Source of the DNA: a phage | Length of the DNA: 54,988 nt | Assembly: GCA_021081985.1 (NCBI GenBank) | Contig: GCA_021081985.1_3639.2 | Strand: one strand, 5' to 3' | Part shown: positions 1-41,547 of the stretch, piece after piece | Layout: each line of letters starts with the position of its first letter | How positions within the stretch are numbered: the first letter of the stretch is position 1 | The notes under the pieces: model-generated | Databases searched by the model: none | What the model saw: the letters and a program-made list of their open reading frames with translations, nothing else | What the model was told of the DNA's origin: nothing | Position numbers and translations under genes: made by a program

Positions 1-1686
1 ATTTAACAACCCTGTATCCGTCTTATCCTCATCCATTGGGTCTAAAACAGATCGCCTGTTACGAAGTGATAGCCACTTAACAATCTGTTTTGCCATATGC
101 ACATCAATTTTCTCCAGATTTGGACACAGATGCCCAAAATTATCTTTTAGTTGAGGAGATGTCGGTAACTGGCGTGCCTTACGCCGAAATTTCTTAAATA
201 TCTCTGAATAACCCCTTTCAGATGCATGGCGATGGTCAAACTTACGCTCTGAAATGTTGAATTTCTCATCTGAATCATTAAGGTAGTCAAGAATAAGAGA
301 TTTATACTCAGACTCTGCCAACTCTTCTATGTACTTCTTAACTAGTACATCAATTTCAGAATCTTCACGAGTCTTTTTAAATTGATCCTTAGTAACATCT
401 TTTACACGCCACAGTGTAGGTTTCCAACCAGCATCTTTGATCAAATATTTTTTAATATCATCTTGATTAGAGATTTTCATTGGAACCATTAAATCTGGCA
501 TTTTTCTGTTTCGAAGGTCTTCTTTAGCCTTCTCTAGAAGATCTGGCGGTAAAGGTTCGAGTGTGTTCTCTTTGGCTCGCTGGGAACGAATGAAATCACC
601 GTATAAAGCCGGATCTTCAATGCCATTCTGGATGCAATATCTCTCCCCTGCTGCACTTACATCCCCATTACTCTTAAAAGCTGTTTTTGGTGGAGCTTTA
701 AAATCCAGAGCTTCTCTGTTAACAGGATAACCAAGTTTATATTCCAACCAATTCCACCCATGATGAGATATATTACCCGCTGTGTCAAAAGGGTTGGCTG
801 GGAATTTTGGTTGTTGGGATTTCGTCATCTCTTTCTTTGGAAGAAGTGGTTCTACCTCTTCTTCAATTTCCCGCATCATCTTATCTATGCGATCTCTTAA
901 TTTTTCTGCCTCCTCCCGATTAAAGTATACGCCTTGTATTTCTTGCTCTATCATCAAATAGTCTGTGAGCATTCTCCTACGTAATGCATTTTTCCAATTA
1001 ATCTGGTGCATCCCGTGAGGTTTATCAGTGTACATAAACTGCTTGTCATCAGGCCATCGCGTACCATTTGACTCATCAATAAGAGCTTTCCACACAAGTT
1101 CGTTAATGATAACGTCTTCCCACACACGGTTTACATATTCCCACAATGGCTGATTACGCCAATCATCAATCTGCACTTTCTTGTTTGCTACACGATAACC
1201 CCATGCCAATAAGCCGTGTGGCCCAACCCTGTCACGTTTTCCTGTTACAGGGTTCAATACAGAATCTGGGCAGCCATTAGGCAATGGGCGATCTGGGTAA
1301 AGAACACGACTCATTGAAAGAGTGTCGTAAAGATTTACCTGTTTATTACCTATCGTCCCCATACATTTTGGGTCTTTGAACATGTCATATTCAATCCCAG
1401 AAAGTTTTTTCCACAGACGTAAATCATAGCCGAACAGGTTATGTATTGCTATCCCTCTTGGCTCGGTCTGCAACCAAGAGTAAAAATCATCATAAGAAAG
1501 GATACGTAAATTAACACCTTCTTTGCTGCGTGCAAAATTAACTGCACTCTGGTATTCCTTGTGAGCAGGATCGAGAAACAATACCCAGTTATTTACAGCA
1601 TATTCTTTAAAAAGTGTGCAGTGATATTTAGTTGCCTCTTCTAATAATCCGTCAGCTTCGTTATCTCCGACAAAAAGCCCTTTCAT
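1..1686 (-). CDS. DNA polymerase, family A (T7 gp5-like), N-terminal exonuclease and part of polymerase domain; 3' end of gene lies beyond window start
   Basis: Continuous minus-strand frame from ATG at 1686 (AGGAGG RBS just upstream) to the window edge. N-terminus MKGLFVGDNEADGLLEEATKYHC and HGLLAWGYRV resemble T7 DNA polymerase exonuclease motifs (recalled, not searched). Confidence 0.75.
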   Translation of the reverse strand, partial: MKGLFVGDNEADGLLEEATKYHCTLFKEYAVNNWVLFLDPAHKEYQSAVNFARSKEGVNLRILSYDDFYSWLQTEPRGIAIHNLFGYDLRLWKKLSGIEYDMFKDPKCMGTIGNKQVNLYDTLSMSRVLYPDRPLPNGCPDSVLNPVTGKRDRVGPHGLLAWGYRVANKKVQIDDWRNQPLWEYVNRVWEDVIINELVWKALIDESNGTRWPDDKQFMYTDKPHGMHQINWKNALRRRMLTDYLMIEQEIQGVYFNREEAEKLRDRIDKMMREIEEEVEPLLPKKEMTKSQQPKFPANPFDTAGNISHHGWNWLEYKLGYPVNREALDFKAPPKTAFKSNGDVSAAGERYCIQNGIEDPALYGDFIRSQRAKENTLEPLPPDLLEKAKEDLRNRKMPDLMVPMKISNQDDIKKYLIKDAGWKPTLWRVKDVTKDQFKKTREDSEIDVLVKKYIEELAESEYKSLILDYLNDSDEKFNISERKFDHRHASERGYSEIFKKFRRKARQLPTSPQLKDNFGHLCPNLEKIDVHMAKQIVKWLSLRNRRSVLDPMDEDKTDTGLLN

Positions 1687-1880
1687 ACTCCTCCTATTCA
1701 AGATGGGCTTGACTGTATCGTCGCCCATCTCTTAGTTGGTTATAGATTATGTGGAAAACTACCTATTTTTGATTTATGTTTCTTTGCCAAAGGGCTTCTC
1801 TTGGCGGGAATGTACCCCTCAAGCCCCTTGGCAACACGAATAGCTAACTCATCATATTTTACACGTATCCTCTTTTTCTC

Positions 1881-3881
1881 TCAAAATGGTGTGTCGTTGT
1901 CCAAATCTTCAGGTTGCTCAATAACAACAGCAGGTTCTTGTTGAGGAACAGAAACAGCAATTTTACCCACAGGTGTTTCAAGCTCTAAACTTTGAACCAT
2001 TGATTTAGGTCTTAGCATTACCTCCCCGTTGAGTTTAAACATATTGTCTTCCCACACCCATCCTGACGCATCAGAAAACTGACCATTATCATCCATAATC
2101 AGGGTATCCGCTATGCCTAATTTTTTGTGTGGACGGTTTTTCAAAACAACACTACGAATACGCCCACGAGATCGGTCAGGGAGTTCTTCAGGCTCGACAC
2201 CTAAGACAACCCACGATAACTGTTCGAGTGCTGCACTTCCCCTTAAAGATTCTTTTCTCACCGGATACCAGAAAGGTAACAAATTACCTTCTTTATCTTT
2301 CGGAATTTGTATATCAACACGCTTCATATGACTGATACTGAGGATAAACACGTCATATTTTTTGCAGAAGGCAGCCAATTCCGTCATGATGTTATCTAAA
2401 TCTCTTCGCTCGTTATCGGATTTTAATCCTGATATCACCATCGATAAGTGATCTAAGATAATCCATCTACACCCATCAAGGAAAACCATCTGTTTCAATT
2501 TTTGTAGTAATTGGTCAGTTGGTATTGAACCAAAGTGATCGAAAATTTTAACCTTATCTTCGGCAATCCATCGTTGGTGTATAGCTAAGTGCTGCTCATC
2601 GGTAAGGAATTGTTCTGGGTCTGCAACAAATGCTTTCGGGTCAATCTTTAGCTCCTCAGCATATAAGCTGTTTACAGACTCCTCCTCATCCTCCTCTAGA
2701 CGAATAATTGCAATTTTCTCGTTCTCTTTCCAACCGTCTAATCGGGGAATATCCATGTTACGGAGGTACTCGATAATTGCATACTCAATCTTTCTTGAGA
2801 AAGTTGATTTCCCAGCTCCAGATGGGCCTGTCAGTGTCCACAATTCTCCTGTTCGTGGGCCTCTTGTTAGTTCATACAAACGAGGAAAGCACGGCAACGG
2901 AACGCCATCTTTTTTCTTTTTACGGAGATTCTCAATAGATATTCTCTCCAACCCAATCAATTTATCAGGAACATATTTGTCCTGCGCTTTAGCAAACATA
3001 TTCCAGATATCCATCCATTTACCTTTTTTGTAAATATCTCGGATATCTTTAACACCATTTGGGTCATTGCGTTCATTTGGGTATCGTGCAACATAGATGT
3101 TGTCAGACAGCAAAAAACTAGCAACATCATCTGTGGCTTCCTTACCTTTCTTAATTCTGTGTTCTTTTTCCCTTGCTGTGGCTTCATCATTGTCTAAACC
3201 AAGGACTATCTTTTCATATTCCCTGATAAACTTTTCGTTGTGGGCAAATGTATCCACAGCATTGGCTGTACCACAGTTCAACCCGATAAAAGGTAATGTC
3301 GGGCAATTAGAAACCTCTTCCCCATCCTGAATTGCTTTGATGCCTTTTAAAGCATTGTTTGCCCACTCACGTACTGAACGTGACGTATTAGGATTACTAT
3401 GAAGAAATTTAATATACTCAAACCCAGCTTGCCAGCCAGCCGTTACATCGCCTTCCCCCTCAACAATAAAGATCTGTTTTTTACCAGATCCCATAGCAGC
3501 TTCATGTTGCCCAAAAAATTGAGAGGAAGCCTTCACTGTGCCAACAACAGAGAAATGCCCCTTTTTCTCTTTCGGGACGGTCCAGTCTCGTTTCTTGTAT
3601 CCTGTCAATTTCCCATATTTATCATAATATGGAAGATATGTTGCCACTACTGTAGTACCGTCTTTCAAATCTGTTGCAGATCTGATCTTGAAGTACTTAG
3701 CTGCATCTAAGCTAATATCCATTTGGGGGACAGCCAAGATCCTTGTACTATCCAAGACAGACTCTACAGTTTCTTCTTCTTTTTTCTGATAATTCACTTT
3801 ACCACCACTTTTTGTAGGCCGGAATGCTTTTGGGTTCTCACCTTCAAAGTATGCACCAGCCCCCCATTTTGTCATCTTCAT
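1881..3881 (-). CDS. Primase-helicase (T7 gp4-like, DnaB-family helicase domain)
   Basis: 666-aa ORF. Walker A LTGPSGAGKST, IILDHLSMV and LRGSAALEQLS motifs parallel T7 gp4 helicase motifs. N-terminal half is consistent with a primase domain. Confidence 0.75.
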   Translation of the reverse strand: MKMTKWGAGAYFEGENPKAFRPTKSGGKVNYQKKEEETVESVLDSTRILAVPQMDISLDAAKYFKIRSATDLKDGTTVVATYLPYYDKYGKLTGYKKRDWTVPKEKKGHFSVVGTVKASSQFFGQHEAAMGSGKKQIFIVEGEGDVTAGWQAGFEYIKFLHSNPNTSRSVREWANNALKGIKAIQDGEEVSNCPTLPFIGLNCGTANAVDTFAHNEKFIREYEKIVLGLDNDEATAREKEHRIKKGKEATDDVASFLLSDNIYVARYPNERNDPNGVKDIRDIYKKGKWMDIWNMFAKAQDKYVPDKLIGLERISIENLRKKKKDGVPLPCFPRLYELTRGPRTGELWTLTGPSGAGKSTFSRKIEYAIIEYLRNMDIPRLDGWKENEKIAIIRLEEDEEESVNSLYAEELKIDPKAFVADPEQFLTDEQHLAIHQRWIAEDKVKIFDHFGSIPTDQLLQKLKQMVFLDGCRWIILDHLSMVISGLKSDNERRDLDNIMTELAAFCKKYDVFILSISHMKRVDIQIPKDKEGNLLPFWYPVRKESLRGSAALEQLSWVVLGVEPEELPDRSRGRIRSVVLKNRPHKKLGIADTLIMDDNGQFSDASGWVWEDNMFKLNGEVMLRPKSMVQSLELETPVGKIAVSVPQQEPAVVIEQPEDLDNDTPF

Positions 3882-9371: not shown

Positions 9372-11343
9372 TAAATTTACGATACTCTAGCATCTCTGGA
9401 GTATTGAAATGCCTAATATTAATGTATTTTAACAATGGGTAGCGATCTTTCTTAATTTGTAGCAGCTTTTTACCAATTCTCTTCTTGGCCTCTATCATCC
9501 ATAATGCTTTCTCACGGCTATCTTCGTAGCCAGGAACTGAACAATAACTGGGCATGTTTACCTTCATCTCCCATTTTGGGAAACTGGCTACCATCACGCC
9601 GAAGTAGCTAAGTTCTTTAACAATGTTATGATACTCATGGTCTTTCCCTACTTCTTGGTATAAATGATATTCAAGAAGGTTAGTTTTTGCAAGAGCATGA
9701 ATATCCTCCTCAGTTATAACCCGTGCCTCATCTGGCAGCCAACTTGATCTGTTTAAAGGCACAATATATAACTTACCAACCACACCGAGATTCTTGAGAA
9801 ATGTTGGTGGTTGCTTTCTCCAAGATGTTCTAAGATTGGAAACGTATCCTAACGGGCATAATCCTTTCACCTGCCCACCCCAGTATACCATAGCCGCCTC
9901 AATATCTTCAAATTGAGCACGGGAAATACGGGTTACATCTACGGAGCCATCTTGGTTGATTATCCAAACTTTATGACCTGGTTCGTAATAACCATAGCCA
10001 CCATACTTTTTATCTGCTTTTTGCACTGGTCGTTTTTCAAGTTCAGATAACTTGAAAATCATCCCTTCAAAGAATTTATCACTGTATAAGGACAGAGCGT
10101 AATCAGCATCGGTTATAAATGATCTCTTACCAAACTTCTCTGCGAGCCAGTTACATTTAGAGCGCACATACTTGTGATCATCATTGTAAACCAGTGGATG
10201 ACCATTCATCAACTCTGCGTATGAATATCTCTCATCCTTACCACGGCGTGAGCCTTCGCCACCATATGTTTCACAGTAATCTATGTAAGAACCATCAGTA
10301 TAATTCTTGAACTTATTTGCAATAAAAGCAGCACCATATTTTGTAGCGAAATAACCACCAACATATTTCATATGTTCAAGAACTGCTTTTAAAGTTGGCA
10401 GATCGCTTAATTCTTTTGTAATTTCTTCTCCACGAAGTCGGATAGCTTTCGTCACAAAACTTTCAAGTTTATCACGGAATCCTCCGTCATTCTTTCCTTC
10501 TACTGTCCATTCTCGGCCTGGGTCTACATTACAATCCCCAATAGGGATAGATACCGTCATCATGGGCAGTTCTTTACGAGTCGAGAGATAATCAGAGAGA
10601 TATGGTTGTTGCCCCATGATGACAACACTATCAGCGTTTCTCGACATGCTACTATACATCTCAAGAACCCAGCCAGTCTCCTCATCCTCATAACGATACT
10701 GAACAGGATAAGTACGATCTTCAATCTGCGTTTTAACAAAAGGATCATTAATGATATATGGAAATTTAGCATAGCGAAGGCATTTTACAATAGCCAGACG
10801 ATAAGCTCCTGTTTCCCAAGTGTTTACGTTAAATTTAACCTCTACACCATTCTCCTCTGTTGTTTCACAAGAAAATAAAGGCACAACCTCTGGTATTCCG
10901 CTGTTTTTGTGAACAGAGTATGTTGTTTTCACTCCATCTTTAACAGAAACAACTGTGAACATATCTGTTACTGCAAGAGGTGCTTTTGACCCAATACCTT
11001 TCGCGCCAATCAGATCATTACTGTTTCTTTTTGTGGACTCACCAATCATCATGAATGTACGTGTTACCATCTCATGATCCATACCTAACCCTGTATCCTT
11101 AACAGAATACCAAGGTTCCAAGTCTGTTGGTGAGTGGATGATGATGGGTTTATCAGAACACCCTGCCTCTGTATGAGCATCTACAGCGTTGAAGAGAGGC
11201 TCTCGTACTGCTGCTAAAGTTTTATCTTTATAAATTCCATCGATAAGAATACTGAAAGTCTCAGGATTCATTGCAATTGATGCTTGGTATCTTTCTACGT
11301 TCCCAGTTACCTGGACTTTGTTGTCAGATCTTTGAATAATCAT
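9343..11343 (-). CDS. rIIA: rIIA-like protein with GHKL/HATPase_c ATP-binding domain
   Basis: 666 aa; N-box REPLFNAVDA, G1 box DTGLGMD and G2 box GAKGIGSKA of the GHKL ATPase fold, as in phage rIIA; followed by the rIIB-like gene. Confidence 0.6.
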   Translation of the reverse strand: MIIQRSDNKVQVTGNVERYQASIAMNPETFSILIDGIYKDKTLAAVREPLFNAVDAHTEAGCSDKPIIIHSPTDLEPWYSVKDTGLGMDHEMVTRTFMMIGESTKRNSNDLIGAKGIGSKAPLAVTDMFTVVSVKDGVKTTYSVHKNSGIPEVVPLFSCETTEENGVEVKFNVNTWETGAYRLAIVKCLRYAKFPYIINDPFVKTQIEDRTYPVQYRYEDEETGWVLEMYSSMSRNADSVVIMGQQPYLSDYLSTRKELPMMTVSIPIGDCNVDPGREWTVEGKNDGGFRDKLESFVTKAIRLRGEEITKELSDLPTLKAVLEHMKYVGGYFATKYGAAFIANKFKNYTDGSYIDYCETYGGEGSRRGKDERYSYAELMNGHPLVYNDDHKYVRSKCNWLAEKFGKRSFITDADYALSLYSDKFFEGMIFKLSELEKRPVQKADKKYGGYGYYEPGHKVWIINQDGSVDVTRISRAQFEDIEAAMVYWGGQVKGLCPLGYVSNLRTSWRKQPPTFLKNLGVVGKLYIVPLNRSSWLPDEARVITEEDIHALAKTNLLEYHLYQEVGKDHEYHNIVKELSYFGVMVASFPKWEMKVNMPSYCSVPGYEDSREKALWMIEAKKRIGKKLLQIKKDRYPLLKYINIRHFNTPEMLEYRKFIDNKGEKGE

Positions 11344-17124: not shown

Positions 17125-17319
17125 TTATAACTCCTTAACAGATTCTAAATCAAGATATTCATCACCACCCACTCGTTTACCGTCTTTCTTACGGTATTTT
17201 GCCTTGCTTTCAAATGCTACCCAATAAGCACCTTCATCTTTTAACTTGTCTTCCCATACCCAACCGAACTGCTTTTTCCTAATGGTTCCTTTGTGGGTAT
17301 ATTGTTGTTTACAATACAT
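17125..17319 (-). CDS. Hypothetical small protein
   Basis: 64-aa basic ORF. Confidence 0.3.
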   Translation of the reverse strand: MYCKQQYTHKGTIRKKQFGWVWEDKLKDEGAYWVAFESKAKYRKKDGKRVGGDEYLDLESVKEL

Positions 17320-22131: not shown

Positions 22132-22239
22132 AATTTAACCACACAGGGAGGCTAACGCACGTAGTCTCCCATATGTCCCCATTTCAGGGACATGGGTATG
22201 TCCCCGTTTTGGGGACACAATACTAACTGATCAAATTAA

Positions 22240-22440
22240 ACTAACTTATAAGATCTATTAAATATAATACTACGTATTATAATACTATGATCTATTTAAT
22301 ATGATCTAATATAATATAAATTATATAATATAATATAATTTAATATAATACTACGTATTATATATAATATATATATATATATATATTATATAAAATTTAT
22401 TTAAAATACATTAAGTCTTGAAGAATGTCAAGACTTGATT
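22240..22440. repeat. A/T-rich low-complexity tract with TATAATA-type repeats and a (TA)n run
   Basis: Repeated TATAATACTACGTATTATA, AATATAATATAAT and ATATATATATATATAT in a non-coding interval. Confidence 0.6.
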
Positions 22441-22625
22441 TTAAATATTTTTGTTGATATGATTCGATTGAGTCGAATCGTATGGTTCGATGATTTCGAA
22501 TCATAGAGTTCATAGTGTTTTGCCTGAAAGCATGAGTCGATGAGACTCTTCAGGCAATACGTGAGTGTGTAAGATGCTCACTGCGCTGATAGCTTGTGAT
22601 CATCTAACCCTCATGAGCCATTCTG

Positions 22626-22678
22626 AGATAAACACACAGAGACAAACCCTACAGGTTTGTCTCTGTGTGTTTATCTCA
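22626..22678. repeat. Perfect 24-bp inverted repeat with 5-nt loop
   Basis: GAGATAAACACACAGAGACAAACC - CTACA - GGTTTGTCTCTGTGTGTTTATCTC; no flanking T-run. Confidence 0.7.
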
Positions 22679-22843
22679 ATCATGGATTCGGGTTGTCACA
22701 AGTCACTATGTGACTCTGTGTGGGGATCTTGAATGTGTACCGGAGCATGGCGCACAGGACTGGTTCATCTGTCCGTCTCAACTGGGGCGCGGTGGGTGTC
22801 AAGGTTTAGTTTTACGTTTTGTGTGGGTGTGGAGGAGAGTCTT

Positions 22844-25745: not shown

Positions 25746-26010
25746 TATGATATTTTATCGCTGATATTTGTTTTCCCTGTGATATTTTGTCACAGGGAGA
25801 AGTTTCAACAACAGATATTTTCTTGATACTTTAAAATTCTACCAGAATTTTAAATTCTGTAAATTTAGAAAACTATTACTTATAAGCGTTTCGACACAAT
25901 TTTGTTATGAAAGCCTTGTTTTTATATAAAAACCTGTTTTAGCATGAGTGGTAGGATCACACTCCATACTACCTTTATTCCTACAGATGAGCACCTCCAT
26001 GTCCGAAAAC

Positions 26011-26950: not shown

Positions 26951-26996
26951 TTTTTAAAAATAGTATTGACAGCGGGGGGTAGTATAGATCTACTAT
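26951..26996 (+). promoter_or_regulatory. Putative sigma70-type early promoter with A/T-rich upstream element
   Basis: AAAAATAGTATTGACA with TTGACA at 26966-26971; the -10 is ambiguous (TATAGAT or TACTAT). The same AAAAATAGTATTGACA element recurs at 32021-32037. Confidence 0.4.
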
Positions 26997-27050
26997 GTGC
27001 ACATCAAGGCGATACACCGCCACCAACCAACCTAAAAGGGGTAAATTAAT

Positions 27051-27710: not shown

Positions 27711-27761
27711 ACTATCACAAAGCGGGGAATCTCTCCCCGCGACATTCAGGAGATCATCAAA

Positions 27762-28041: not shown

Positions 28042-28398
28042 ATGGCAATCCAGGCAATCCTGTTAGAACTTACAGACTTCCGTAATACTGTAAAAAATTT
28101 AACCAAAAAACAGGTTGATAATATTATCAACGGATACCGTAGCAAGATTAAAGATCTTCCGCTTAAACGCGATCAACATGCGGCTAATATGATGCTTGAC
28201 GCTATGATCAAAAAGATGATTCAGTGCGATCTTACTCTGGCTTATGAATACGCTGGCGATCTCTTTGTAACGTATAATAAGCCAGTGCCAGGCATGTGCA
28301 CCACGGAAGAATTGCACGCCCTGAATCTAAAACAAGATGCATGGGATAATATGCGCCGCGTTATGGTGTGGGCAGAAAGCGGTAAAATTTATCAATAA
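28042..28398 (+). CDS. Hypothetical protein
   Basis: 118 aa; RBS GAGAGGTAAATAAAAAA before ATG. Confidence 0.45.
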   Translation: MAIQAILLELTDFRNTVKNLTKKQVDNIINGYRSKIKDLPLKRDQHAANMMLDAMIKKMIQCDLTLAYEYAGDLFVTYNKPVPGMCTTEELHALNLKQDAWDNMRRVMVWAESGKIYQ

Positions 28399-28404
28399 AG
28401 ATAG

Positions 28405-28442
28405 TTGTCTTTTAGTTATGCCGTGGTAGAATACACGGCATA
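28405..28442 (+). promoter_or_regulatory. Promoter TTGTCT-16-TAGAAT with a 9-bp inverted repeat (TATGCCGTG / CACGGCATA) bracketing the -10
   Basis: Arms at 28417-28425 and 28434-28442; near-identical copy at 32649-32686. Confidence 0.5.
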
Positions 28443-28474
28443 GATAAGAGAAACTACTTATCAGAGTTTAAAAG

Positions 28475-28693
28475 ATGAAAAATATTACTGGTAAAACCGA
28501 GCTATTAAAGGCGCTTTCTGTCGGTGAGTCAGCTTTATGGGTATGTGAAAAAGATCGCCTACCGTCGCGTGAGATGGCCTTGTTTAAGGCTTTATCTCTG
28601 AAGCTGAAAATTAAATTATCCCAAAAATTAGCGGTTGTTGCCGCACCTGGGGAAACTGCTTTCAGTGTTGTAATGGTTAAAAGGTTGGAGTAG
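28475..28693 (+). CDS. Hypothetical small protein
   Basis: 72-aa ORF. Confidence 0.4.
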   Translation: MKNITGKTELLKALSVGESALWVCEKDRLPSREMALFKALSLKLKIKLSQKLAVVAAPGETAFSVVMVKRLE

Positions 28694-28713
28694 AAAAAAA
28701 ATTAAAAATTATA

Positions 28714-28742
28714 TTGACAAGCAAAACAGCAAAAATTAAACT
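28714..28742 (+). promoter_or_regulatory. Putative promoter TTGACA-17-TAAACT
   Basis: A-rich upstream tract; precedes the gene at 28781. Confidence 0.35.
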
Positions 28743-28780
28743 TACACACAGTTAAACAAATAATATTAACGAGGTAAATC

Positions 28781-29152
28781 ATGAAACAGTTAACCGCTTC
28801 CCAAAAAGCAATGATCCGCAAGTATGTTTTAAACTCTCTTTCTTTCGATATTGAATCGGGTAGCGAGCAAGATCAGATCAAAGAATTAAAAAACCGATTT
28901 GAATCTGAATACTGGTACGATAGCAACAAGAAACGCTATCAAAATGATAAAGTACAAGGCCTCAAAAATTGGTTGCAAGGTTTGCCGAGTGGTGTTAATA
29001 TCGATTTCACTTATTACGATATTGAGCAACGCCTTAAAGATCTTGGAATCATTACCGAGACGACCAGAGAAAGCACTATTGAAAAATATGTATCTGAGTG
29101 GTGGGATCTGATAGCGCCGTTTTATGCTGGGCTAATCGTCAACTTAAAATAA
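28781..29152 (+). CDS. Hypothetical protein
   Basis: 123 aa; RBS ACGAGGTAAATC before ATG. Confidence 0.45.
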   Translation: MKQLTASQKAMIRKYVLNSLSFDIESGSEQDQIKELKNRFESEYWYDSNKKRYQNDKVQGLKNWLQGLPSGVNIDFTYYDIEQRLKDLGIITETTRESTIEKYVSEWWDLIAPFYAGLIVNLK

Positions 29153-29230
29153 TTATTGTAAACTGTCTGAAACTGGTTTAAATTAAAGGGAGTGAGTTTA
29201 ATCACTCCCAACATGAAAGAGGTTAATCAA

Positions 29231-29542
29231 ATGAATACTTATTTTTCTACTCGTTCACTTGCACGCATTGCAGCGAAAGAAACAGGCGGTAAAGTTTTAG
29301 ATAATGGAAAAGATGCGCCGATCGGTAAACGTTGGCAAGTTATCCCTGGCTATGTTATTGAAGCCGTCCAGGATACAGCGAAACAACGCGCTGAGATGGA
29401 AAATAAACCAGTAGTCACCTTGTCCATTGGTAAGCGTAGCAATGTAGCGAATCAAGCCCGTAAGGCGCTTTATTACGCCATCAATTACGCAAAAAATAAT
29501 AAAACTGTTCCGGTTTATCATAAGCGTTCATTTAAAAAATAA
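29231..29542 (+). CDS. Hypothetical protein (start trimmed to MNTYFST)
   Basis: RBS AAAGAGGTTAATCAA before ATG at 29231; basic C-terminus. Confidence 0.4.
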   Translation: MNTYFSTRSLARIAAKETGGKVLDNGKDAPIGKRWQVIPGYVIEAVQDTAKQRAEMENKPVVTLSIGKRSNVANQARKALYYAINYAKNNKTVPVYHKRSFKK

Positions 29543-29559
29543 TTTTTAATTAGATAAAA

Positions 29560-29583
29560 AAGCGCCCATCTCTTAGGGCGCTT
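29560..29583 (-). terminator. Stem-loop AAGCGCCC/GGGCGCTT with the T-run on the minus strand
   Basis: On the plus strand an A-run precedes the hairpin, so it is oriented to terminate minus-strand transcription inside a plus-strand gene block. Confidence 0.35.
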
Positions 29584-29620
29584 AACCAAAACACCAAAAC
29601 ACTTAAAGAGGTAAATTATT

Positions 29621-29971
29621 ATGAATAATATTGTAGAAGTTTTCAAAAAAGCCGTAGAAAATAAAAACGCTGAATTGTCTTTAGTATCTCTAGATTTCAC
29701 TGATGTTTACGGTAACACTTATTTTGTTTATGAGCTTAGTTTTACTTGTCCTGAGTTAAAAACATGGGAGACGTTGCATAAATCTCGCGATCTGCAATAT
29801 GGATATGGTGATCACGTTTTAACTGTTGCAATGAAAGACCTTTCAACTATCACCGGGGTAAAATCTGAGGCCGCATATATTACCCGTTGGGCGCATGACA
29901 ACGGTTTAAAAATTAGTGTCAACAAGCGCACCAATTGCCGGAAAAAAGATTTAAAACAGTTTATCGCTTGA
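29621..29971 (+). CDS. Hypothetical protein
   Basis: 116 aa; RBS AAAGAGGTAAATTATT before ATG. Confidence 0.45.
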
Positions 29972-29996
29972 TCCTGTTAATCATCTTGGTGGTTGT

Positions 29997-30347
29997 ATGA
30001 TTCAGTTTTATATAATCATCGCGGCGCTTGCAATTTACTTAGGATTGCACAAAAAAGTATTCAGGGTGATTATCTGGTTTTATTACGAGTACAGGATCAA
30101 AATGGTTTTCCATTATATTGAATACTCTTTCCACGGTGAGAGATACCACACAAGAAGATCCGGCCCATTAAATGATCTTGAGGGCAACGGTTTAATCTGT
30201 GAGATTAAAAAGCGTGGCGGTAAAATTCTTTACCACAAAGAGGGTACTTTTGATTATATTGATGAGGTGATTAATTTTAGGCAACAAGCCGTAAAAGATC
30301 ACGCCAGCAAAATAATCAACGGCAGCTATAAACGCAAAGCGGGGTAA
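29997..30347 (+). CDS. Hypothetical protein with N-terminal transmembrane segment
   Basis: 116 aa; N-terminus MIQFYIIIAALAIYLGL is hydrophobic. Confidence 0.4.
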   Translation: MIQFYIIIAALAIYLGLHKKVFRVIIWFYYEYRIKMVFHYIEYSFHGERYHTRRSGPLNDLEGNGLICEIKKRGGKILYHKEGTFDYIDEVINFRQQAVKDHASKIINGSYKRKAG

Positions 30348-30348
30348 T

Positions 30349-30531
30349 ATGCGGAATTTTGAAAAAATTGTTAAAGCTAATCGCCTGGAATACGGGGAAA
30401 CAGACGAAAAACGGGAACGGGTAGGCAAACGCCACAAACCTAAAAAGGTTCCTAAGTTGTGGTGTCCTGATAAATACGATCACAAATTAAAACAGCGTAT
30501 CGCTGAAAAACAGCGACTTAATGCAAGATAA
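30349..30531 (+). CDS. Hypothetical small basic protein
   Basis: 60 aa, Lys/Arg-rich; followed by a terminator. Confidence 0.4.
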   Translation: MRNFEKIVKANRLEYGETDEKRERVGKRHKPKKVPKLWCPDKYDHKLKQRIAEKQRLNAR

Positions 30532-30536
30532 CAGAC

Positions 30537-30561
30537 AAGGCCGGATAGTTCCGGCCTTTTT
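30537..30561 (+). terminator. Rho-independent terminator
   Basis: AAGGCCGGA-TAGT-TCCGGCCTT followed by TTTTT. Confidence 0.6.
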
Positions 30562-30749
30562 AATGCCTGGTGGCGTTCAGAACGATTAAAACTCTTAAAG
30601 ATGGTCCAATGTACCACAAAATAAAATAGCTCGTTAGAGAGTGTTTTAGAGGCCTTAAAATCGATCCGAAAATATCTATAAAAATGCTTGCAATGCTTTC
30701 CCGCTATCGTTATAGTGTTCCCAACAAGCAAGCAAACGAGGTAACGGCA

Positions 30750-30887
30750 ATGATTGAGATTCTTAAAAATCCTATTTTGTGTGGTATGGTTGTTTCTGTG
30801 TCACTTCCGATCGTGCTGTTAGTCGTTGGCGAGATAGATGATCTTATTTTCAATAAAAGACTTGCCAACAAGTCAAAAACAAATTAA
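30750..30887 (+). CDS. Small membrane protein (start trimmed to MIEILKNPIL)
   Basis: RBS ACGAGGTAACGGCA before ATG at 30750; hydrophobic core CGMVVSVSLPIVLLVVG. Confidence 0.35.
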   Translation: MIEILKNPILCGMVVSVSLPIVLLVVGEIDDLIFNKRLANKSKTN

Positions 30888-30924
30888 CATAGTATCAACA
30901 TACTAACTGACGAGGTGATTTAAT

Positions 30925-31143
30925 ATGTTTGGTTTTATTGTTCTATCTTGTTCTCTTTCTGTCACTGCTGCAAAGGTAGAATGTAACTACACTGTAAAAG
31001 AGACTTTTAATGATGAAAATTCTTGCAATGTATACGAAAATAATTATAAACTAGGAGACGGGGAGCAGTTCGGGATCTGTGATGAATTAAAGGACGGTAT
31101 CAAGAAAGGCGATAAGCGCCCGATCCTGGTCCTGAAAAAATAA
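30925..31143 (+). CDS. Small secreted protein (signal peptide-like N-terminus)
   Basis: 72 aa; N-terminus MFGFIVLSCSLSVTAAKV; RBS GACGAGGTGATTTAAT. Confidence 0.4.
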   Translation: MFGFIVLSCSLSVTAAKVECNYTVKETFNDENSCNVYENNYKLGDGEQFGICDELKDGIKKGDKRPILVLKK

Positions 31144-31175
31144 TTTTTCTAATCATGTTGATCAATTTTTAAGAG

Positions 31176-31472
31176 GTGAATAAAATGTTTGAAGTTTTCG
31201 CGGGTATGTGCTTTTATACAGCTTTGGCAGTTCGCCAGTGTGATGATTATATCGTTGAATCATACGATGATCAGTTGACTTGCGAAATAGTCGCTAATGA
31301 CTACGGCAAAAAAGATCGCTGGATTAATCCGGCTTGCATACCATCCCCAGAGGTTGAAGCCATGCCGGAAGGGGAAGAGGTATCAGATCCAGTTGTAGCA
31401 GTATCCTCCTTTTTCGTTGACAACCTGGACGCCCAAGAATTGATCAACATGTATGTAAAAAATCAAAAATAA
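31176..31472 (+). CDS. Hypothetical protein
   Basis: 98 aa; RBS TAAGAGGTGAATAAA before ATG. Confidence 0.45.
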   Translation: MNKMFEVFAGMCFYTALAVRQCDDYIVESYDDQLTCEIVANDYGKKDRWINPACIPSPEVEAMPEGEEVSDPVVAVSSFFVDNLDAQELINMYVKNQK

Positions 31473-31475
31473 CGC

Positions 31476-31510
31476 TTGACGTTGATTTGTGCCACCTTAT
31501 AATAGGTGGC
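31476..31510 (+). promoter_or_regulatory. Promoter TTGACG-16-TATAAT with the -10 inside the inverted repeat GCCACCT/AGGTGGC
   Basis: TTGACG at 31476-31481, TATAAT at 31498-31503; palindrome arms at 31491-31497 and 31504-31510. Confidence 0.5.
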
Positions 31511-31562
31511 ATAGGTAAGCGAAAGCGGATCTAAGTCTTAAACAAGTTAAGAGAGGTAAATC

Positions 31563-31697
31563 ATGGAACAAGCTAATAAATTTTTCTTTCTGGCTGGGAT
31601 CGTGGATAATGTGAAATATGATTTCAAGCGTGAAAATGATAAGACGTTACTCACTTTCTGCGATATGCTTGATCATGAGAATGCCGACAAGTTATGA
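31563..31697 (+). CDS. Hypothetical small protein (44 aa, not in the ORF track)
   Basis: RBS AAGAGAGGTAAATC before ATG; translated MEQANKFFFLAGIVDNVKYDFKRENDKTLLTFCDMLDHENADKL. Confidence 0.3.
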   Translation: MEQANKFFFLAGIVDNVKYDFKRENDKTLLTFCDMLDHENADKL

Positions 31698-32031
31698 ATC
31701 GAGATCCGCACGATAACCAATATCGACAATTCAAGCCGTTTAATTTATAAATCTCATTCGATAGCTTACAGCTTGGAAACATCAACAAGCTGCATACAAC
31801 AAGGTGAGAGCTTGCCCATTCTAAATAGTGCCGATGTATTTGGCGCGGTTGTTGCAATTGTAAATGATGTTTTTTCTCGTTGATTGGTGTTAATATTATG
31901 TTAGAGAATATCGTGTTTTGGTGTGGTGTCGTTATCGCTGTTATGGTTGGCATCCTGGCGACGATGGCGAACATTGTGATCTCAAACAACCTGGCAGGGT
32001 AAAAATTTTTTAAAAATAGTATTGACATACT

Positions 32032-32059
32032 GGCGGCATATGGTATCATTTACCACATG
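32032..32059 (+). promoter_or_regulatory. Promoter TTGACA-16-TATCAT with extended -10 TG and upstream AAAAATAGTA element
   Basis: TTGACA at 32032-32037; TGGTATCAT at 32051-32059. Confidence 0.45.
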
Positions 32060-32100
32060 AAGGGGCGAGATTGACTTGCCTCACTAACGAAAGGTAAATA

Positions 32101-32370
32101 ATGATGAACATTTCTAAAACTACTTTTAACTTTGCTAAAAAGCGTGGAATTGAGCTTGAGCTAGTCGAAGCAGATGATCGCTTGCTCCTGGCTTTTTATG
32201 AAGCTAAAAACGAATGTGAGTGGATGTTCTCTTATAATGTTAATCATGATTGCCTAACCTGGCGCGGAAATATCTATCTTTCAAACGAAGTGAAAGAGGA
32301 ATTACCCGCCACGATCACGACTGAGAAAAAACTACGTGAGGTTATTGACTTCATCTCTAAAAGTATCTAA
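32101..32370 (+). CDS. Hypothetical protein
   Basis: 89 aa; RBS ACGAAAGGTAAATA before ATG. Confidence 0.45.
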   Translation: MMNISKTTFNFAKKRGIELELVEADDRLLLAFYEAKNECEWMFSYNVNHDCLTWRGNIYLSNEVKEELPATITTEKKLREVIDFISKSI

Positions 32371-32417
32371 GATTACAGGGAAAGGGGCAAAAGCCCCCTA
32401 CCGCAGAAGGTATAAAA

Positions 32418-32642
32418 ATGGATAAATTAACAAAGATTGAACATGAAGTTATGGATCTTGCACGGGCTAATAAGCCATTTGACAAGATTTACTCTAAGGA
32501 GAATAAAGAGATCTTGAAAGATCTAACGCAAGGCCAAAAAGACGGCTTGCGCCGCTTATATCGTGAGGCGTATGACTATTTTCGCTGGTGGGAAATAGAA
32601 GAGGCTAACGCGAAAATAGAAGGCTTAGAAAATTTAGTATAA
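32418..32642 (+). CDS. Hypothetical small protein
   Basis: 74 aa; RBS CAGAAGGTATAAAA before ATG. Confidence 0.4.
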   Translation: MDKLTKIEHEVMDLARANKPFDKIYSKENKEILKDLTQGQKDGLRRLYREAYDYFRWWEIEEANAKIEGLENLV

Positions 32643-32648
32643 AAGTAG

Positions 32649-32686
32649 TTGACTTTTAGTTATGCCGTGATAGAATGCACGGCATA
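32649..32686 (+). promoter_or_regulatory. Promoter TTGACT-16-TAGAAT with the same 9-bp inverted repeat (TATGCCGTG / CACGGCATA) as at 28405-28442
   Basis: The two copies share about 40 nt including both palindrome arms. Confidence 0.5.
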
Positions 32687-32737
32687 GATAAGAGAGACGG
32701 CATAAGCCATTAATTAAACTTAAAGAGGTGAATTATC

Positions 32738-33139
32738 ATGAATACTTATGGTACTGTTTTTAATTTCGACAACTTCAAAGCTATCTGTGACGATCAGATC
32801 GGTAAGTGCCGTAAAGAAAAAGGATTCTATAAATCTTATAAATTGATTGCGGTTGTTGATGAAGAGATCACCGAAGTGGCGACGCTCAACCTGTACCACA
32901 CCAACGCTACTAATTACGCTTGCTTATGGATGCACTGGACCAATATTAAAGGTTGGGATCATGGCTATGTTGGCGGGAAAGCAAGCGGATACGGTTACAA
33001 CAGGGAAGAGGCCGCGATCCATGTTGCAGCTAATAAACTCGGTATTACCGGCAACTGGTTTAACGGTGAACAATTGTTAGATGCAATGGCACGTCATTTT
33101 GATATGAAAGGCGCGAAGGTTATCTGCTGCAACGCGTGA
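32738..33139 (+). CDS. Hypothetical protein
   Basis: 133 aa; RBS AAAGAGGTGAATTATC before ATG. Confidence 0.45.
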   Translation: MNTYGTVFNFDNFKAICDDQIGKCRKEKGFYKSYKLIAVVDEEITEVATLNLYHTNATNYACLWMHWTNIKGWDHGYVGGKASGYGYNREEAAIHVAANKLGITGNWFNGEQLLDAMARHFDMKGAKVICCNA

Positions 33140-33186
33140 TCACTCAATAGCGGGGAATATTCCCCGCTTATAGATAGGGCATAATC

Positions 33187-33642: not shown

Positions 33643-33671
33643 TTGACACCCTCATAAAAACGCCTTATTAT
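33643..33671 (+). promoter_or_regulatory. Promoter TTGACA-17-TATTAT
   Basis: Followed by the 5' stem-loop GGCGGGGAGCGGTTCCCCGCC (33683-33703) and the gene at 33725. Confidence 0.45.
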
Positions 33672-33724
33672 CTATCTCATAAGGCGGGGAGCGGTTCCCC
33701 GCCACACTTAAGAGGTAAATAATC

Positions 33725-34118: not shown

Positions 34119-34147
34119 AGGCCGCATATTAGCGGCCTTTAATTTTT
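34119..34147 (+). terminator. Putative rho-independent terminator
   Basis: AGGCCGC-ATATTA-GCGGCCT followed by TTTAATTTTT. Confidence 0.5.
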
Positions 34148-34923: not shown

Positions 34924-34952
34924 AAAGGGCGCTTAATGCGCCCTTTCTTTTT
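34924..34952 (+). terminator. Rho-independent terminator ending the plus-strand early cluster
   Basis: GGGCGC-TTAAT-GCGCCC followed by TTTCTTTTT. Confidence 0.6.
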
Positions 34953-40782: not shown

Positions 40783-40810
40783 AAGCCCCACATGGGGCTT
40801 TTATTTTTAT
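40783..40810. terminator. Bidirectional rho-independent terminator between convergent genes
   Basis: AAGCCCC-ACAT-GGGGCTT flanked by an A-run upstream and a T-run downstream. Confidence 0.6.
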
Positions 40811-41547
40811 TCAAAATCATCAACACCGCTATCGGTAAGGTTTTCTCTGCTCGAAGGTTTTGTCGAAAGAACTTGCTCAAGCAGAGAGGAAAATTTCTGC
40901 AAATTACTTACAGAAGAAGCCCCTGCTGCCATGGCAAGCATATCCACTTCTTTTTCGGTAGGTTGCGTCCAGTCTAGAAACATCTCTTTCATGTACAACG
41001 TTGATGTCCCTATTGGTGTGGCGTGGTCAACCCTATCAGCATAGACCCAGAAAAGAACTTCTTTCTCTATACATACACACAAAGCAGCACCCAACGAGTA
41101 TCCTGCAACGAGGGATGGATATCTTGCAACGAGGATCTCGACATTCAGGTCATCCCAGTGAAATACAACACCCAAACACTTCATATCCACAATGTCTTCC
41201 ACTGCGGGTCTTAGCTCCTCATGGGAAGAAAAGGAGTCATAGTTGATATTCTTTATGAATTTAAGAACGTCTTGGCGGTTGTAGGCACAATCGTTATCAC
41301 CTTGCTTCCAGTAACCCCAAAATGAAGTCGATAAATTCAACCAAAAACTTGCAGTTGTCCCTAATGTCTCAGCCAGTTTTTCAGCCACATCCTCTGATAC
41401 CTCTTCCATGTTATAAAGGATGGTTCTCAACTTATTTACCGGTATACCAGATCTGTCAGCAAGATCATCCACACACCAACCTAATGGATCCAGATATTCG
41501 TGGATAATAACCTCCCCTGGTGACACTGGTGCTCTTTCTTTCTGCAT
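40807..41547 (-). CDS. HTH (XRE/HigA-like) DNA-binding protein with a C-terminal domain of unknown function
   Basis: N-terminus after the internal Met: PVSPGEVIIHEYLDPLGWCVDDLADRSGIPVNKLRTIL ... ASFWLNL resembles HigA-type HTH antitoxins; RBS AAAGGAGAA precedes that ATG. Confidence 0.5.
   Translation of the reverse strand: MQKERAPVSPGEVIIHEYLDPLGWCVDDLADRSGIPVNKLRTILYNMEEVSEDVAEKLAETLGTTASFWLNLSTSFWGYWKQGDNDCAYNRQDVLKFIKNINYDSFSSHEELRPAVEDIVDMKCLGVVFHWDDLNVEILVARYPSLVAGYSLGAALCVCIEKEVLFWVYADRVDHATPIGTSTLYMKEMFLDWTQPTEKEVDMLAMAAGASSVSNLQKFSSLLEQVLSTKPSSRENLTDSGVDDFE

What the first reader, a model, noticed from the sequence alone, without database searches (positions are those of the whole stretch)
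28405..32686. Duplicated promoter with a 9-bp inverted repeat bracketing the -10 hexamer
Two early promoters (28405-28442 and 32649-32686) share about 40 nt including TATGCCGTG and CACGGCATA arms placed symmetrically around a TAGAAT -10 element. A third promoter (31476-31510) has a different palindrome (GCCACCT/AGGTGGC) around TATAAT. Palindromes centred on the -10 are typical repressor operators, implying a dedicated regulator that shuts off a subset of early genes; the HigA-like HTH protein at 40807..41547 is one candidate.
Basis: seen in the sequence. Interest (0 to 1): 0.55.

Follow-up and report, generated by a model that had tools for sequence, protein, structure and literature searches.

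The report
Early promoters buried inside conserved hairpins
The three promoter palindromes are real, but each is only the core of a roughly 60-base hairpin that encloses a whole host-type early promoter and keeps its base pairing across many related phages, so it looks like a folded nucleic-acid signal, most likely in the RNA, and not a repressor binding site.

Summary
Windows 28405-28442 and 32649-32686 carry TATGCCGTG/CACGGCATA around TAGAAT. Window 31476-31511 carries TGCCACCT/AGGTGGCA around TATAAT.

The repressor-operator reading is not supported. The window belongs to an Av-05-like E. coli myophage (Vequintavirinae). Homologous promoters occur in Klebsiella, Serratia, Cronobacter and Pectobacterium phages and in metagenomic relatives. 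They keep the -35, the -10 and the start region, but they carry about 40 different stem sequences that stay complementary. In a 49-sequence alignment, 14 of 16 pairs show compensatory changes and 96% of cells are paired, against 30-45% when the partners are slid.

The 8-9-bp repeat is the top of a 20-25-bp imperfect hairpin (about -38 to +20). Its outer helices pair the -35 region with the transcribed leader. G:U wobbles outnumber A:C mismatches 41 to 10. All three window copies fold 7-11 kcal/mol better on the sense strand.

Best reading (about 0.45): an RNA hairpin that forms only in transcripts reading through from upstream, acting as an RNase III-like processing or 3'-end-stabilising signal laid over an internal sigma-70 promoter.

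Main rival: a DNA hairpin or cruciform that gates the promoter.

I found no published description. I class it as a new variant of composite promoter/stem-loop cassettes.

The parts
28395..28463 (+). Element P1, a promoter inside a hairpin (subfamily Ib). The RNA fold pairs 28398-28459 (3+5+7+10 bp). -35 TTGTCT 28405-28410; core arms 28417-28425 and 28434-28442; -10 TAGAAT 28427-28432; predicted start at C/A 28439-28440 of CATAG.
   Evidence: Sequence. CM hits of 71.3 and 57.0 bits. RNA MFE -27.7 kcal/mol, z -7.5, against -21.0 for the antisense strand.
31466..31534 (+). Element P3 (subfamily Ia). The RNA fold pairs 31473-31527 (5+4+13 bp). -35 TTGACG 31476-31481; core arms 31490-31497 and 31504-31511; -10 TATAAT 31498-31503; predicted start at 31510-31511.
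   Evidence: Sequence. CM hits of 76.8 and 48.6 bits. MFE -31.0, z -8.5, against -19.9 for the antisense strand. The Av-05 ortholog carries a compensatory A:T to G:C change.
32639..32708 (+). Element P2 (subfamily Ib). The RNA fold pairs 32645-32701. -35 TTGACT 32649-32654; core arms 32661-32669 and 32678-32686; -10 TAGAAT 32671-32676, preceded by TGn; predicted start at 32683-32684.
   Evidence: Sequence. CM hits of 76.6 and 49.2 bits. MFE -23.7, z -6.6, against -15.6 for the antisense strand. The Av-05 ortholog carries a compensatory G:C to A:T change.
28042..28398 (+). ORF upstream of P1, on the same strand. Its stop codon abuts the base of the hairpin. It is the inferred source of read-through RNA that would contain the whole hairpin.
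   Evidence: ORF list. No + strand terminator-like site between it and P1. Junction fold.
28475..28693 (+). 72-aa ORF served by P1 (phrog_5988, function unknown).
31176..31472 (+). ORF upstream of P3. Its stop codon (31470-31472) lies immediately 5' of the hairpin base.
31563..31697 (+). 44-aa ORF served by P3. It matches only the first 44 positions of the 106-residue phrog_7366 profile, so it is probably truncated or frameshifted here.
   Evidence: Av-05 annotation.
32418..32642 (+). ORF upstream of P2. Its stop codon (32640-32642) lies 2 nt before the first paired base.
32738..33139 (+). 133-aa ORF served by P2 (phrog_7028, function unknown).

Best explanation
Each of the three sites is a roughly 60-nt dual-purpose element.

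Read as DNA, it is a host sigma-70 early promoter: an A-rich upstream stretch, TTGAC(G/T), a 16-18-nt spacer, TAnAAT, and a start at the conserved CATAG.

Read as the sense strand, the same 60 nt form a 20-25-bp imperfect hairpin.
- The loop is the -10 hexamer.
- The top stem is made of the spacer and the discriminator/start region.
- The lower helices pair the -35 region with the first 15-20 transcribed bases.

Proposed mechanism.
1. Transcription starts inside the 3' arm, so an RNA made from the element's own promoter cannot form the hairpin.
2. An RNA that reads through from the upstream gene carries both arms and folds.
3. I infer that the folded RNA acts as an intercistronic punctuation mark. 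It would be a double-stranded substrate of RNase III type and/or a 3'-terminal hairpin left on the upstream message.
4. This would stabilise the upstream cistron and uncouple it from the downstream one, whose expression is then set by the embedded promoter.

Shown here: the anatomy, the conservation, the covariation, the strand bias and the position.

Inferred: that the structure acts as RNA, that read-through occurs, and that the outcome is processing or stabilisation.
For: (1) Structure, not sequence, is conserved.
- RNAalifold on 26 Ia and 20 Ib promoters predicts the long hairpin. Compensatory changes occur in 10 of 16 and 11 of 17 pairs.
- On A1, 96.9% of cells are paired against 23-41% when partners are slid, and 0 of 500 shuffles reach the observed value.
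- On the CM alignment A3 (49 distinct sequences), 96.0% are paired against 30-45%, with compensatory changes in 14 of 16 pairs.
- The outer helix covaries: GCTT/AAGC, TGTT/AACA, GATT/AATC.
- The window and Av-05 orthologs differ by compensatory A:T to G:C and G:C to A:T changes.

(2) The evidence leans towards the sense strand.
- G:U cells outnumber A:C cells 41 to 10.
- One T:G wobble is kept at the same stem position in three divergent members while its neighbours covary.
- The window elements fold 6.7-11.1 kcal/mol better as sense than as antisense RNA.
- In subfamily Ia the sense strand is the more stable in 23 of 27 members.

(3) The size fits RNase III substrates.
- The median hairpin has 20-21 bp and small internal loops.
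- E. coli RNase III substrates typically span two helical turns. Internal loops limit cleavage to one strand and leave a protective 3' hairpin (PMC1540722).

(4) The context fits.
- The upstream ORF stops 0-3 nt before the hairpin base.
- Other junctions in the same early region carry one simple GC-rich hairpin after the stop codon.
- No + strand terminator-like site separates the elements from upstream promoters and ORFs.

(5) In P1 the -35 is degraded to TTGTCT, and this change adds pairing. Av-05 has the same change.
Against: - There are no transcript data. Read-through, RNA folding in vivo and cleavage are all unproven.
- The strand bias is absent in subfamily Ib as a whole (sense more stable in 11 of 19, not significant).
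- The sequences are phylogenetically related, so the cell counts are not independent.
- A C-to-T mutation bias on the non-template strand could add to the G:T excess. Sense-strand C/T differences number 279 against 224 A/G differences, and third codon positions have T above A.
- Nothing explains why an RNA hairpin should always be centred on the -10 instead of lying anywhere in the spacer between genes. That exact registration is what a DNA-level effect on the promoter would predict.
- The RNase III proximal-box and distal-box determinants were not evaluated.
Confidence: 0.45

Rival explanations
1. DNA-level structural switch. Under negative supercoiling the imperfect palindrome extrudes a cruciform, or only the non-template strand folds, with the -10 hexamer in the single-stranded loop. 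This either blocks the promoter (a supercoil-sensing shut-off) or offers a pre-melted -10 to sigma-70.
For: The repeat is registered on the -10 with near-single-base precision across about 40 different stems. A purely RNA-level role does not require this. The loop is AT-rich and the arms are up to 25 nt long. With DNA parameters the hairpins still fold at -12 to -17 kcal/mol. A sense-strand bias is also compatible with a hairpin on the non-template strand only.
Against: A symmetric cruciform needs both strands to pair. G:T outnumbers A:C 41 to 10, and the antisense folds of the window copies are 7-11 kcal/mol weaker, so the second hairpin would be poor. The arms contain 2-4 mismatches or bulges, which strongly disfavour extrusion (established knowledge of cruciform energetics). 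With DNA parameters the sense/antisense difference shrinks to 0.1-1.5 kcal/mol, so G:T pairs contribute little in DNA. In some members the stem invades the -10 itself (L005 and L044).
Confidence: 0.2
2. Recombination or mobility cassette. The 60-bp palindromic promoter units are portable boundaries, like PeSLs or MITEs, at which early ORFs are swapped, duplicated or deleted. The hairpin is the recombination substrate or a by-product.
For: P1 and P2 share only the roughly 59-nt element and sit between unrelated genes. Pairs or triplets with identical stems occur within single genomes: 05F01 at 9563/12165 and 6724/11480; L023 at 550/3049/3717. The elements cluster in regions of small ORFs of unknown function. 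PeSLs of T4-like phages are documented to mediate such shuffling (PMC2839356, PMC4122927).
Against: Homology-driven shuffling needs sequence identity, not intramolecular pairing. It does not explain compensatory changes or the G:U bias. The window and Av-05 are collinear over 12.5 kb, with all three elements at orthologous places. This idea can coexist with the RNA or DNA explanations.
Confidence: 0.15
3. Transcription attenuator or terminator for read-through RNA polymerase. The stem-loop would play the role shown for PeSL stem-loops, stopping upstream transcription exactly where a new promoter takes over.
For: The hairpins are stable and GC-rich, sit at gene ends and are compactly fused to a promoter. 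PeSL stem-loops tested as terminators were effective (PMC2839356).
Against: No T/U run follows the hairpin on either strand. The downstream sequence is purine-rich: GATAAGAGA, TAGGTAAGCG. The terminator scan does not call them, while it does call genuine terminators nearby at 34119 and 34924.
Confidence: 0.1
4. Operator of a dimeric phage or host repressor that overlaps the -10, with the HTH protein at 40807-41547 as a candidate.
For: Palindromes over the -10 are the classical operator layout. The commonest stems share outer TATGCC/GGCATA bases. A weak HTH protein is encoded 8 kb away.
Against: About 40 different arm sequences exist, with several unrelated ones in one genome. Inner bases covary to keep pairing, which a protein site does not need. 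Half-site spacing varies from 14 to 16 nt. Pairing continues through the -35 and the leader. G:U tolerance is strand-specific. The conserved CATA is explained by the transcription start. The sequence is absent from E. coli genomes.
Confidence: 0.05

Closest known systems
PeSL (promoter-early stem-loop) cassettes of T4-like phages (Arbiol 2010, PMC2839356; Comeau 2014, PMC4122927)
   Same: Both are short composite units made of a strong sigma-70-like early promoter with an AT-rich upstream region plus a stable stem-loop. Both are repeated many times between small ORFs of unknown function in the early or hyperplastic regions of large lytic myophages. In both, copies within a genome are similar while the flanking genes are unrelated.
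   Different: In PeSLs the stem-loop lies just upstream of the promoter and behaves as a terminator. Here the hairpin encloses the whole promoter: the -10 is in the loop, the -35 is in the lower helix and the start is in the 3' arm. It spans 20-25 bp and has no U-tract. The phage lineage is also unrelated (Vequintavirinae and Stephanstirmvirinae).
RNase III processing sites of T7-type early mRNAs (R0.3-R1.3; substrate rules in PMC1540722)
   Same: Both are intercistronic hairpins in polycistronic early transcripts made by host RNA polymerase. Both span about two helical turns interrupted by small internal loops. Single-strand cleavage of such sites leaves a protective 3' hairpin on the upstream message.
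   Different: Cleavage of the present hairpins is untested, and the proximal-box and distal-box determinants were not examined.
Correia (CREE) and REP-type palindromic intergenic repeats of bacteria (from my own knowledge, not checked with the tools)
   Same: Both are multi-copy imperfect palindromes between genes. Correia and REP repeats can carry promoter elements and, when transcribed, fold into hairpins that are cut by RNase III or stabilise upstream mRNA.
   Different: Those are chromosomal and larger (100-155 bp for Correia), with terminal inverted repeats and target-site duplications. In them the promoter is incidental, not the conserved centre of the structure.
Cruciform-controlled promoter (engineered bla promoter of Horwitz and Loeb 1988) and hairpin promoters of phage N4 virion RNA polymerase (N4 review PMC4496689, listed; details from my own knowledge)
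   Same: All have an inverted repeat centred at about -10 of a promoter, so that DNA secondary structure and promoter recognition are coupled.
   Different: The Horwitz-Loeb promoter is artificial and a perfect palindrome. N4 promoters have 5-7-bp stems with 3-nt loops on the template strand and are read by a phage-encoded polymerase. Here the promoters match the sigma-70 consensus, the loops are 6-11 nt and the pairing bias favours the non-template (sense) strand.
Repressor operators overlapping the -10 (for example LexA, LacI or phage cI/Cro-type sites)
   Same: Both have dyad symmetry over the -10 hexamer.
   Different: Operators conserve half-site sequence and spacing and do not need intramolecular complementarity. 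These elements do the opposite.

Membership tests
Repressor operator overlapping the -10 | Half-site sequence conserved among the sites of the regulon | tested here: not met
   About 40 distinct arm sequences among homologous promoters, with several unrelated ones within one genome.
Repressor operator overlapping the -10 | Fixed half-site spacing, with no requirement for complementarity in the spacer | tested here: not met
   TATGCC to GGCATA spacing is 14-16 nt. The inner bases covary to stay paired: 14 of 16 pairs are compensatory.
Repressor operator overlapping the -10 | A cognate DNA-binding protein binds the site | not testable with these tools
   The HTH ORF at 40807-41547 gives only a sub-threshold HTH_3 match (17.3 bits against a cut-off of 23) and phrog_1381. 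No binding data exist.
Sigma-70-type early promoter | -35 TTGACA-like and -10 TATAAT-like hexamers 16-18 nt apart, ahead of a gene | tested here: met
   TTGTCT/TTGACG/TTGACT, N16, TAGAAT/TATAAT; ORFs start 33-56 nt after the -10. The same consensus is published for Certrevirus.
Sigma-70-type early promoter | Mapped transcription start and early timing | not testable with these tools
   No transcript data were found for this phage group.
PeSL cassettes | Sigma-70-like early promoter with AT-rich upstream region plus a stable stem-loop in one short repeated intergenic unit | tested here: met
PeSL cassettes | Stem-loop located just upstream of the promoter and acting as a terminator | tested here: not met
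   The stem brackets the -10 and the lower helix includes the -35. No T-run follows.
PeSL cassettes | Mediates ORF shuffling by recombination between copies | tested here: inconclusive
   Copies share only the element and have unrelated flanks, but the window and Av-05 are collinear.
RNase III processing site | About two helical turns of (quasi-)continuous double-stranded RNA, often with an internal loop | tested here: met
   Median of 20-21 bp with 1-2 small internal loops. The criterion is taken from PMC1540722.
RNase III processing site | Present in a transcript (read-through from upstream) and cleaved by RNase III | not testable with these tools
   Only the absence of terminators upstream is shown.
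Cruciform-forming promoter palindrome | Inverted repeat centred on the promoter core | tested here: met
Cruciform-forming promoter palindrome | Both strands able to fold equally (near-perfect palindrome) | tested here: not met
   G:U 41 against A:C 10. The antisense folds of the window copies are 7-11 kcal/mol weaker. In subfamily Ib as a whole there is no bias.
Phage N4-type hairpin promoter | 5-7-bp stem and 3-nt loop on the template strand, read by a virion RNA polymerase | tested here: not met
   Loops are 4-11 nt in the predicted folds (median 7), sigma-70 hexamers are present, and the pairing bias is on the non-template strand. Presence of a virion RNA polymerase gene was not searched. 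CB7 and rV5 are reported to lack any RNA polymerase gene.
Known Rfam RNA family | Match to a curated covariance model | tested here: not met
   No Rfam 15 hit at E of 1 or better on any of the three elements.

The most novel reading that the evidence does not exclude
The hairpin acts on DNA. The non-template strand of a host sigma-70 promoter is selected to fold so that the -10 hexamer sits in a single-stranded loop. This would make a structure-gated promoter for the host polymerase, either pre-melted or switched off by supercoiling or by passage of an upstream polymerase. It would be a natural sigma-70 counterpart of the N4 hairpin promoters.
Probability: 0.12. Interest if true: 0.85.

Novelty: new variant of a known kind. 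Interest (0 to 1): 0.6.

Why it matters
If the reading is right, two codes are written in the same 60 bases: a complete host promoter, and a base-paired structure that only transcripts coming from upstream can form.

This gives a simple way for a phage to tell read-through RNA apart from locally initiated RNA and to insulate dozens of small early genes from each other.

The element is conserved across at least two subfamilies of large enterobacterial myophages that are used in phage therapy and biocontrol. It seems to have escaped the papers that described their promoters.

It also warns against reading dyad symmetry over a -10 as an operator without comparative data.

Its strong covariation makes it directly testable with compensatory mutants.

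Tried and rejected
- Pattern scan of viral contigs for the Ia motif gave only 7 stretches.
- The search for related loci with the neighbouring 121-aa protein returned only Av-05 itself.
About 14 are genuine and the rest are chance matches.
- Literature searches for rV5/Vequintavirinae promoters, stem-loops or transcriptomes found promoter descriptions but no mention of the palindrome and no start-site data.
- Counting G:T against A:C in the 9-bp cores alone gave 7 against 0, too few to rely on. I therefore extended the count to the full structure.
- I tried to judge mutation bias from window/Av-05 substitutions and codon third positions. Without an outgroup the direction of change cannot be set, so the bias can be neither excluded nor shown to be large.
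- Intrinsic terminator: rejected, because no T-run follows on either strand.
- Host operator mimic: rejected, because there is no match in 5,426 E. coli genomes.
- Known RNA family: rejected.
- Frpo-type single-stranded-DNA promoter: rejected, because there the hexamers are rebuilt inside the stem, whereas here the -10 is in the loop.

Full report
**1. The observation**

- P1 is TTGTCT-N16-TAGAAT, with TATGCCGTG (28417-28425) and CACGGCATA (28434-28442) on either side of the -10.
- P2 is TTGACT-N16-TAGAAT with the same arms (32661-32669 and 32678-32686).
- P3 is TTGACG-N16-TATAAT with TGCCACCT (31490-31497) and AGGTGGCA (31504-31511).

The 26-nt pattern occurs twice in the window, allowing up to 3 mismatches, and never in 100 dinucleotide shuffles. 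P1 and P2 are alike over about 59 nt, not about 40 nt, and the similarity stops abruptly in unrelated flanks.

**2. What genome this is**

The window is 94-95% identical to Escherichia phages 18-1-2, 19-1-2, 24-2-1 and vB_EcoM_TH18, and 93.5% identical to Av-05. Av-05 belongs to Avunavirus in the Vequintavirinae.

The three sites lie in a block of small + strand ORFs of unknown function at about 22.7-35 kb. This is the usual look of an early region. Each site sits between two ORFs on the same strand. The upstream stop codon is 0-3 nt from the first paired base.

**3. Relatives show structure, not sequence, is conserved**

Sensitive blastn with the 66-71-nt promoter segments found homologous intergenic segments. 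They occur in Klebsiella phage 05F01 (Stephanstirmvirinae), Serratia phage ChuuTotoro, Cronobacter phage CR3, Pectobacterium phages and Salmonella phage SSBI34.

I read these regions and others from IMG/VR and metagenomes. They define two related subfamilies.
- Ia: gcTTGACGttggtt-[stem]-TAyAAT-[stem]CATAGRCAARCGAAAGC.
- Ib: agtwgTTGACTnnn-[stem]-TAGAAT or CATAAT-[stem]...AAGAGAAAC.

The hexamers and the CATAG start region are constant, but the stems differ. Examples are CCGTG/CACGG, ACCTG/CAGGT, GCTGT/ACAGC, CCGCC/GGCGG, CCGGGT/ACCCGG and CCCGCT/AGCGGG. In all there are 40 distinct stems among 302 TTGAC-N16-19-TAnnnT sites.

The nearly identical Av-05 genome already shows compensatory double changes at the orthologous sites.
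- P3: CCACCT/AGGTGG becomes CCGCTT/AGGCGG.
- P2: TATGCCGTG/CACGGCATA becomes TATACCGTG/CTCGGTATA.

The repeat is strictly positioned. Of 216 promoter-like sites, 21 have a perfect repeat of at least 7 bp whose loop holds the -10. At every other offset from -40 to +40 the count is 0-4.

**4. The repeat is only the top of a much longer hairpin**

Folding the intergenic junctions as RNA showed that pairing continues outward.
- P1 forms 3+5+7+10 bp (-27.7 kcal/mol, z -7.5).
- P3 forms 5+4+13 bp (-31.0 kcal/mol, z -8.5).
- P2 forms about 21 bp in all, counting two extra outer pairs (-23.7 kcal/mol, z -6.6).

The lower helices pair the two bases before the -35, the TT and the CG/CT of the -35, and the spacer with the first 15-20 transcribed bases. 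So the 'conserved downstream motif' is simply the imperfect complement of the -35 region.

RNAalifold on MAFFT alignments recovers this structure for Ia (26 sequences) and Ib (20 sequences). Compensatory changes occur in 10 of 16 and 11 of 17 pairs. The outer helix covaries as GCTT/AAGC, TGTT/AACA and GATT/AATC.

Pair counts support the structure.
- On A1, 96.9% of cells are paired against 23-41% with slid partners, and 0 of 500 shuffles reach the observed value.
- On a CM-derived alignment of 49 distinct sequences, 96.0% are paired against 30-45%, and 14 of 16 pairs are compensatory.

The median hairpin has 20-21 bp and a 7-nt loop. Two covariance models each detect all three window sites at 49-77 bits, and nothing else in the window on the sense strand. 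The two subfamilies are therefore homologous, and the window holds exactly three copies.

**5. Which strand folds**

Several results point to the sense strand.
- In the 49-sequence alignment, G:U cells outnumber A:C cells 41 to 10. Two antisense rows in that alignment may add to the A:C count.
- One T:G wobble is kept at the same stem position in three divergent members while neighbouring pairs covary.
- The window copies fold 6.7, 11.1 and 8.1 kcal/mol better as sense than as antisense RNA.
- In Ia the sense strand is the more stable in 23 of 27 members, by 3.9 kcal/mol on average.

Two results weaken this.
- In Ib the sense strand is the more stable in only 11 of 19 members, which is not significant.
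- With DNA parameters the difference almost vanishes.

A strand-asymmetric mutation bias cannot be excluded, but it looks mild. Sense-strand C/T differences number 279 against 224 A/G differences, and third-position AT skew is -0.14. On balance the data favour a structure formed by the sense strand, and RNA is the simplest candidate.

**6. Mechanism proposed**

The predicted start (C/A of CATAG, 7-8 nt after the -10) lies inside the 3' arm. RNA made from the element's own promoter therefore lacks the 5' arm and stays unfolded. RNA reading through from the upstream ORF contains the full hairpin. No + strand terminator-like site separates the elements from upstream promoter-like sites and ORFs.

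Other junctions of the same region carry one simple GC-rich hairpin after the stop codon (27722, 29560, 30537, 33149, 34119, 34924). A hairpin at each gene boundary seems to be the rule. In these three cases it is fused with the promoter.

[quoted passage not shown] Single-strand cleavage of such substrates leaves a 3' hairpin that protects the upstream RNA (PMC1540722).

I therefore propose an intercistronic processing or stabilising hairpin laid over an internal promoter. The steps 'acts as RNA', 'read-through occurs' and 'is cleaved or protects' are inferences.

One supporting detail: in P1 and its Av-05 ortholog the -35 has become TTGTCT. This weakens the promoter match but adds base pairs.

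**7. Rivals**

- DNA-level hairpin or cruciform that gates the promoter. It best explains the exact centring on the -10. The strand bias, the mismatches in the arms and the small contribution of G:T pairs in DNA count against it.
- Portable recombination cassette of the PeSL type. It fits the element-only similarity of P1 and P2 and the identical copies within genomes. It does not explain the covariation, and it can coexist with either structural model.
- Terminator. There is no U-tract.
It is contradicted by the diversity of arms, the variable spacing, the covariation, the extension of pairing through the -35 and the leader, and the wobble bias. The HTH candidate is a weak HTH_3 match annotated as a plasmid antitoxin. 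The sequence is absent from E. coli genomes.

**8. Comparison with what is known**

- Published accounts of rV5 and of Certrevirus promoters describe sigma-70-like promoters, but the words palindrome, inverted repeat and hairpin do not occur in them.
- Rfam has no matching family.
- The nearest described concept is the PeSL of T4-like phages. There the stem-loop lies upstream of the promoter and terminates transcription.
- T7 early RNase III sites share the RNA anatomy but not the promoter overlap.
- Correia/REP repeats, the engineered cruciform promoter of Horwitz and Loeb, and N4 hairpin promoters are looser analogies that I recalled from memory.

**9. Verdict**

The operator interpretation is not supported. 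The element is a conserved, covarying hairpin that encloses a promoter, and I found no published description of it. It is a new variant of composite promoter/stem-loop cassettes, and its mode of action (RNA or DNA) remains to be settled by experiment.

Noticed in passing
window 22200-22700: A noncoding stretch of about 0.5-1 kb between the divergent gene blocks. It holds a (TA)n run, two copies of the palindrome TATAATACTACGTATTATA (22263-22281 and 22343-22363) and a perfect 25-bp hairpin with a 5-nt loop (22624-22678). The hairpin gave only chance-level miRNA-precursor Rfam hits. It could be a replication origin or a bidirectional control region. The rV5 paper also mentions a non-coding box.
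   Followed up: partly
window 33643-33703, 32022-32085, about 26960-27030; also L001-L003 and L012: A second promoter class. The -10 is followed by ..CACATAG/CATAAG and then immediately by a GC-rich 7-8-bp hairpin (for example GGCGGGGA-gcggt-TCCCCGCC at 33683-33703). The primary transcript would therefore begin with a 5'-terminal stem-loop, a known type of mRNA stabiliser. At 33661-33686 a further 8-bp repeat (CGCCTTAT/ATAAGGCG) overlaps the -10 and the start.
   Followed up: partly
window 31563-32100: The ORF after P3 is only 44 aa long and matches just the first 44 positions of the 106-residue phrog_7366 profile. In Av-05 the ORF at the corresponding position (Av05_0037) is 106 aa. The next roughly 400 nt hold only + strand ORFs of 36-40 aa. 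This suggests a frameshift, a pseudogene or a sequencing error.
   Followed up: partly
window 27722-27740, 29560-29583, 30537-30558, 33149-33168, 34119-34138, 34924-34946: Nearly every other gene junction in the early block carries one GC-rich hairpin 6-48 nt after the stop codon. Some have T-runs and are true terminators (34119, 34924, probably 30537). 29560 looks like a terminator for the opposite strand.
   Followed up: partly
window 32698-32704: A third copy of CGGCATA lies 12 nt after the P2 hairpin (gaCGGCATAagcc; GACGGCACAAGCC in Av-05). In read-through RNA it could pair with the 5' arm TATGCCG as an alternative. RNAfold instead draws a small GGC....GCC hairpin.
   Followed up: no
window 25774-25798; L011 about 17188-17217: The 9-bp repeat TCCCTGTGA/TCACAGGGA surrounds TATTTTG. 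It is conserved and longer (10 bp) in Av-05. It is not preceded by a good -35, so it is probably an ordinary stem-loop and not a fourth element.
   Followed up: no
window 31519-31526 and all Ia members: The Ia leader contains GCGAAAGC, which in promoter-initiated RNA (lacking the 5' arm) could form a 2-3-bp GNRA-tetraloop mini-hairpin. Whether this matters is unknown.
   Followed up: no
L023 (ERZ1036624 NODE-1, 148 kb) 540-3776: Five elements lie within 3.3 kb of one metagenomic phage contig, three of them with the identical stem TATGCCGTC. This suggests recent duplication or gene conversion among copies.
   Followed up: no
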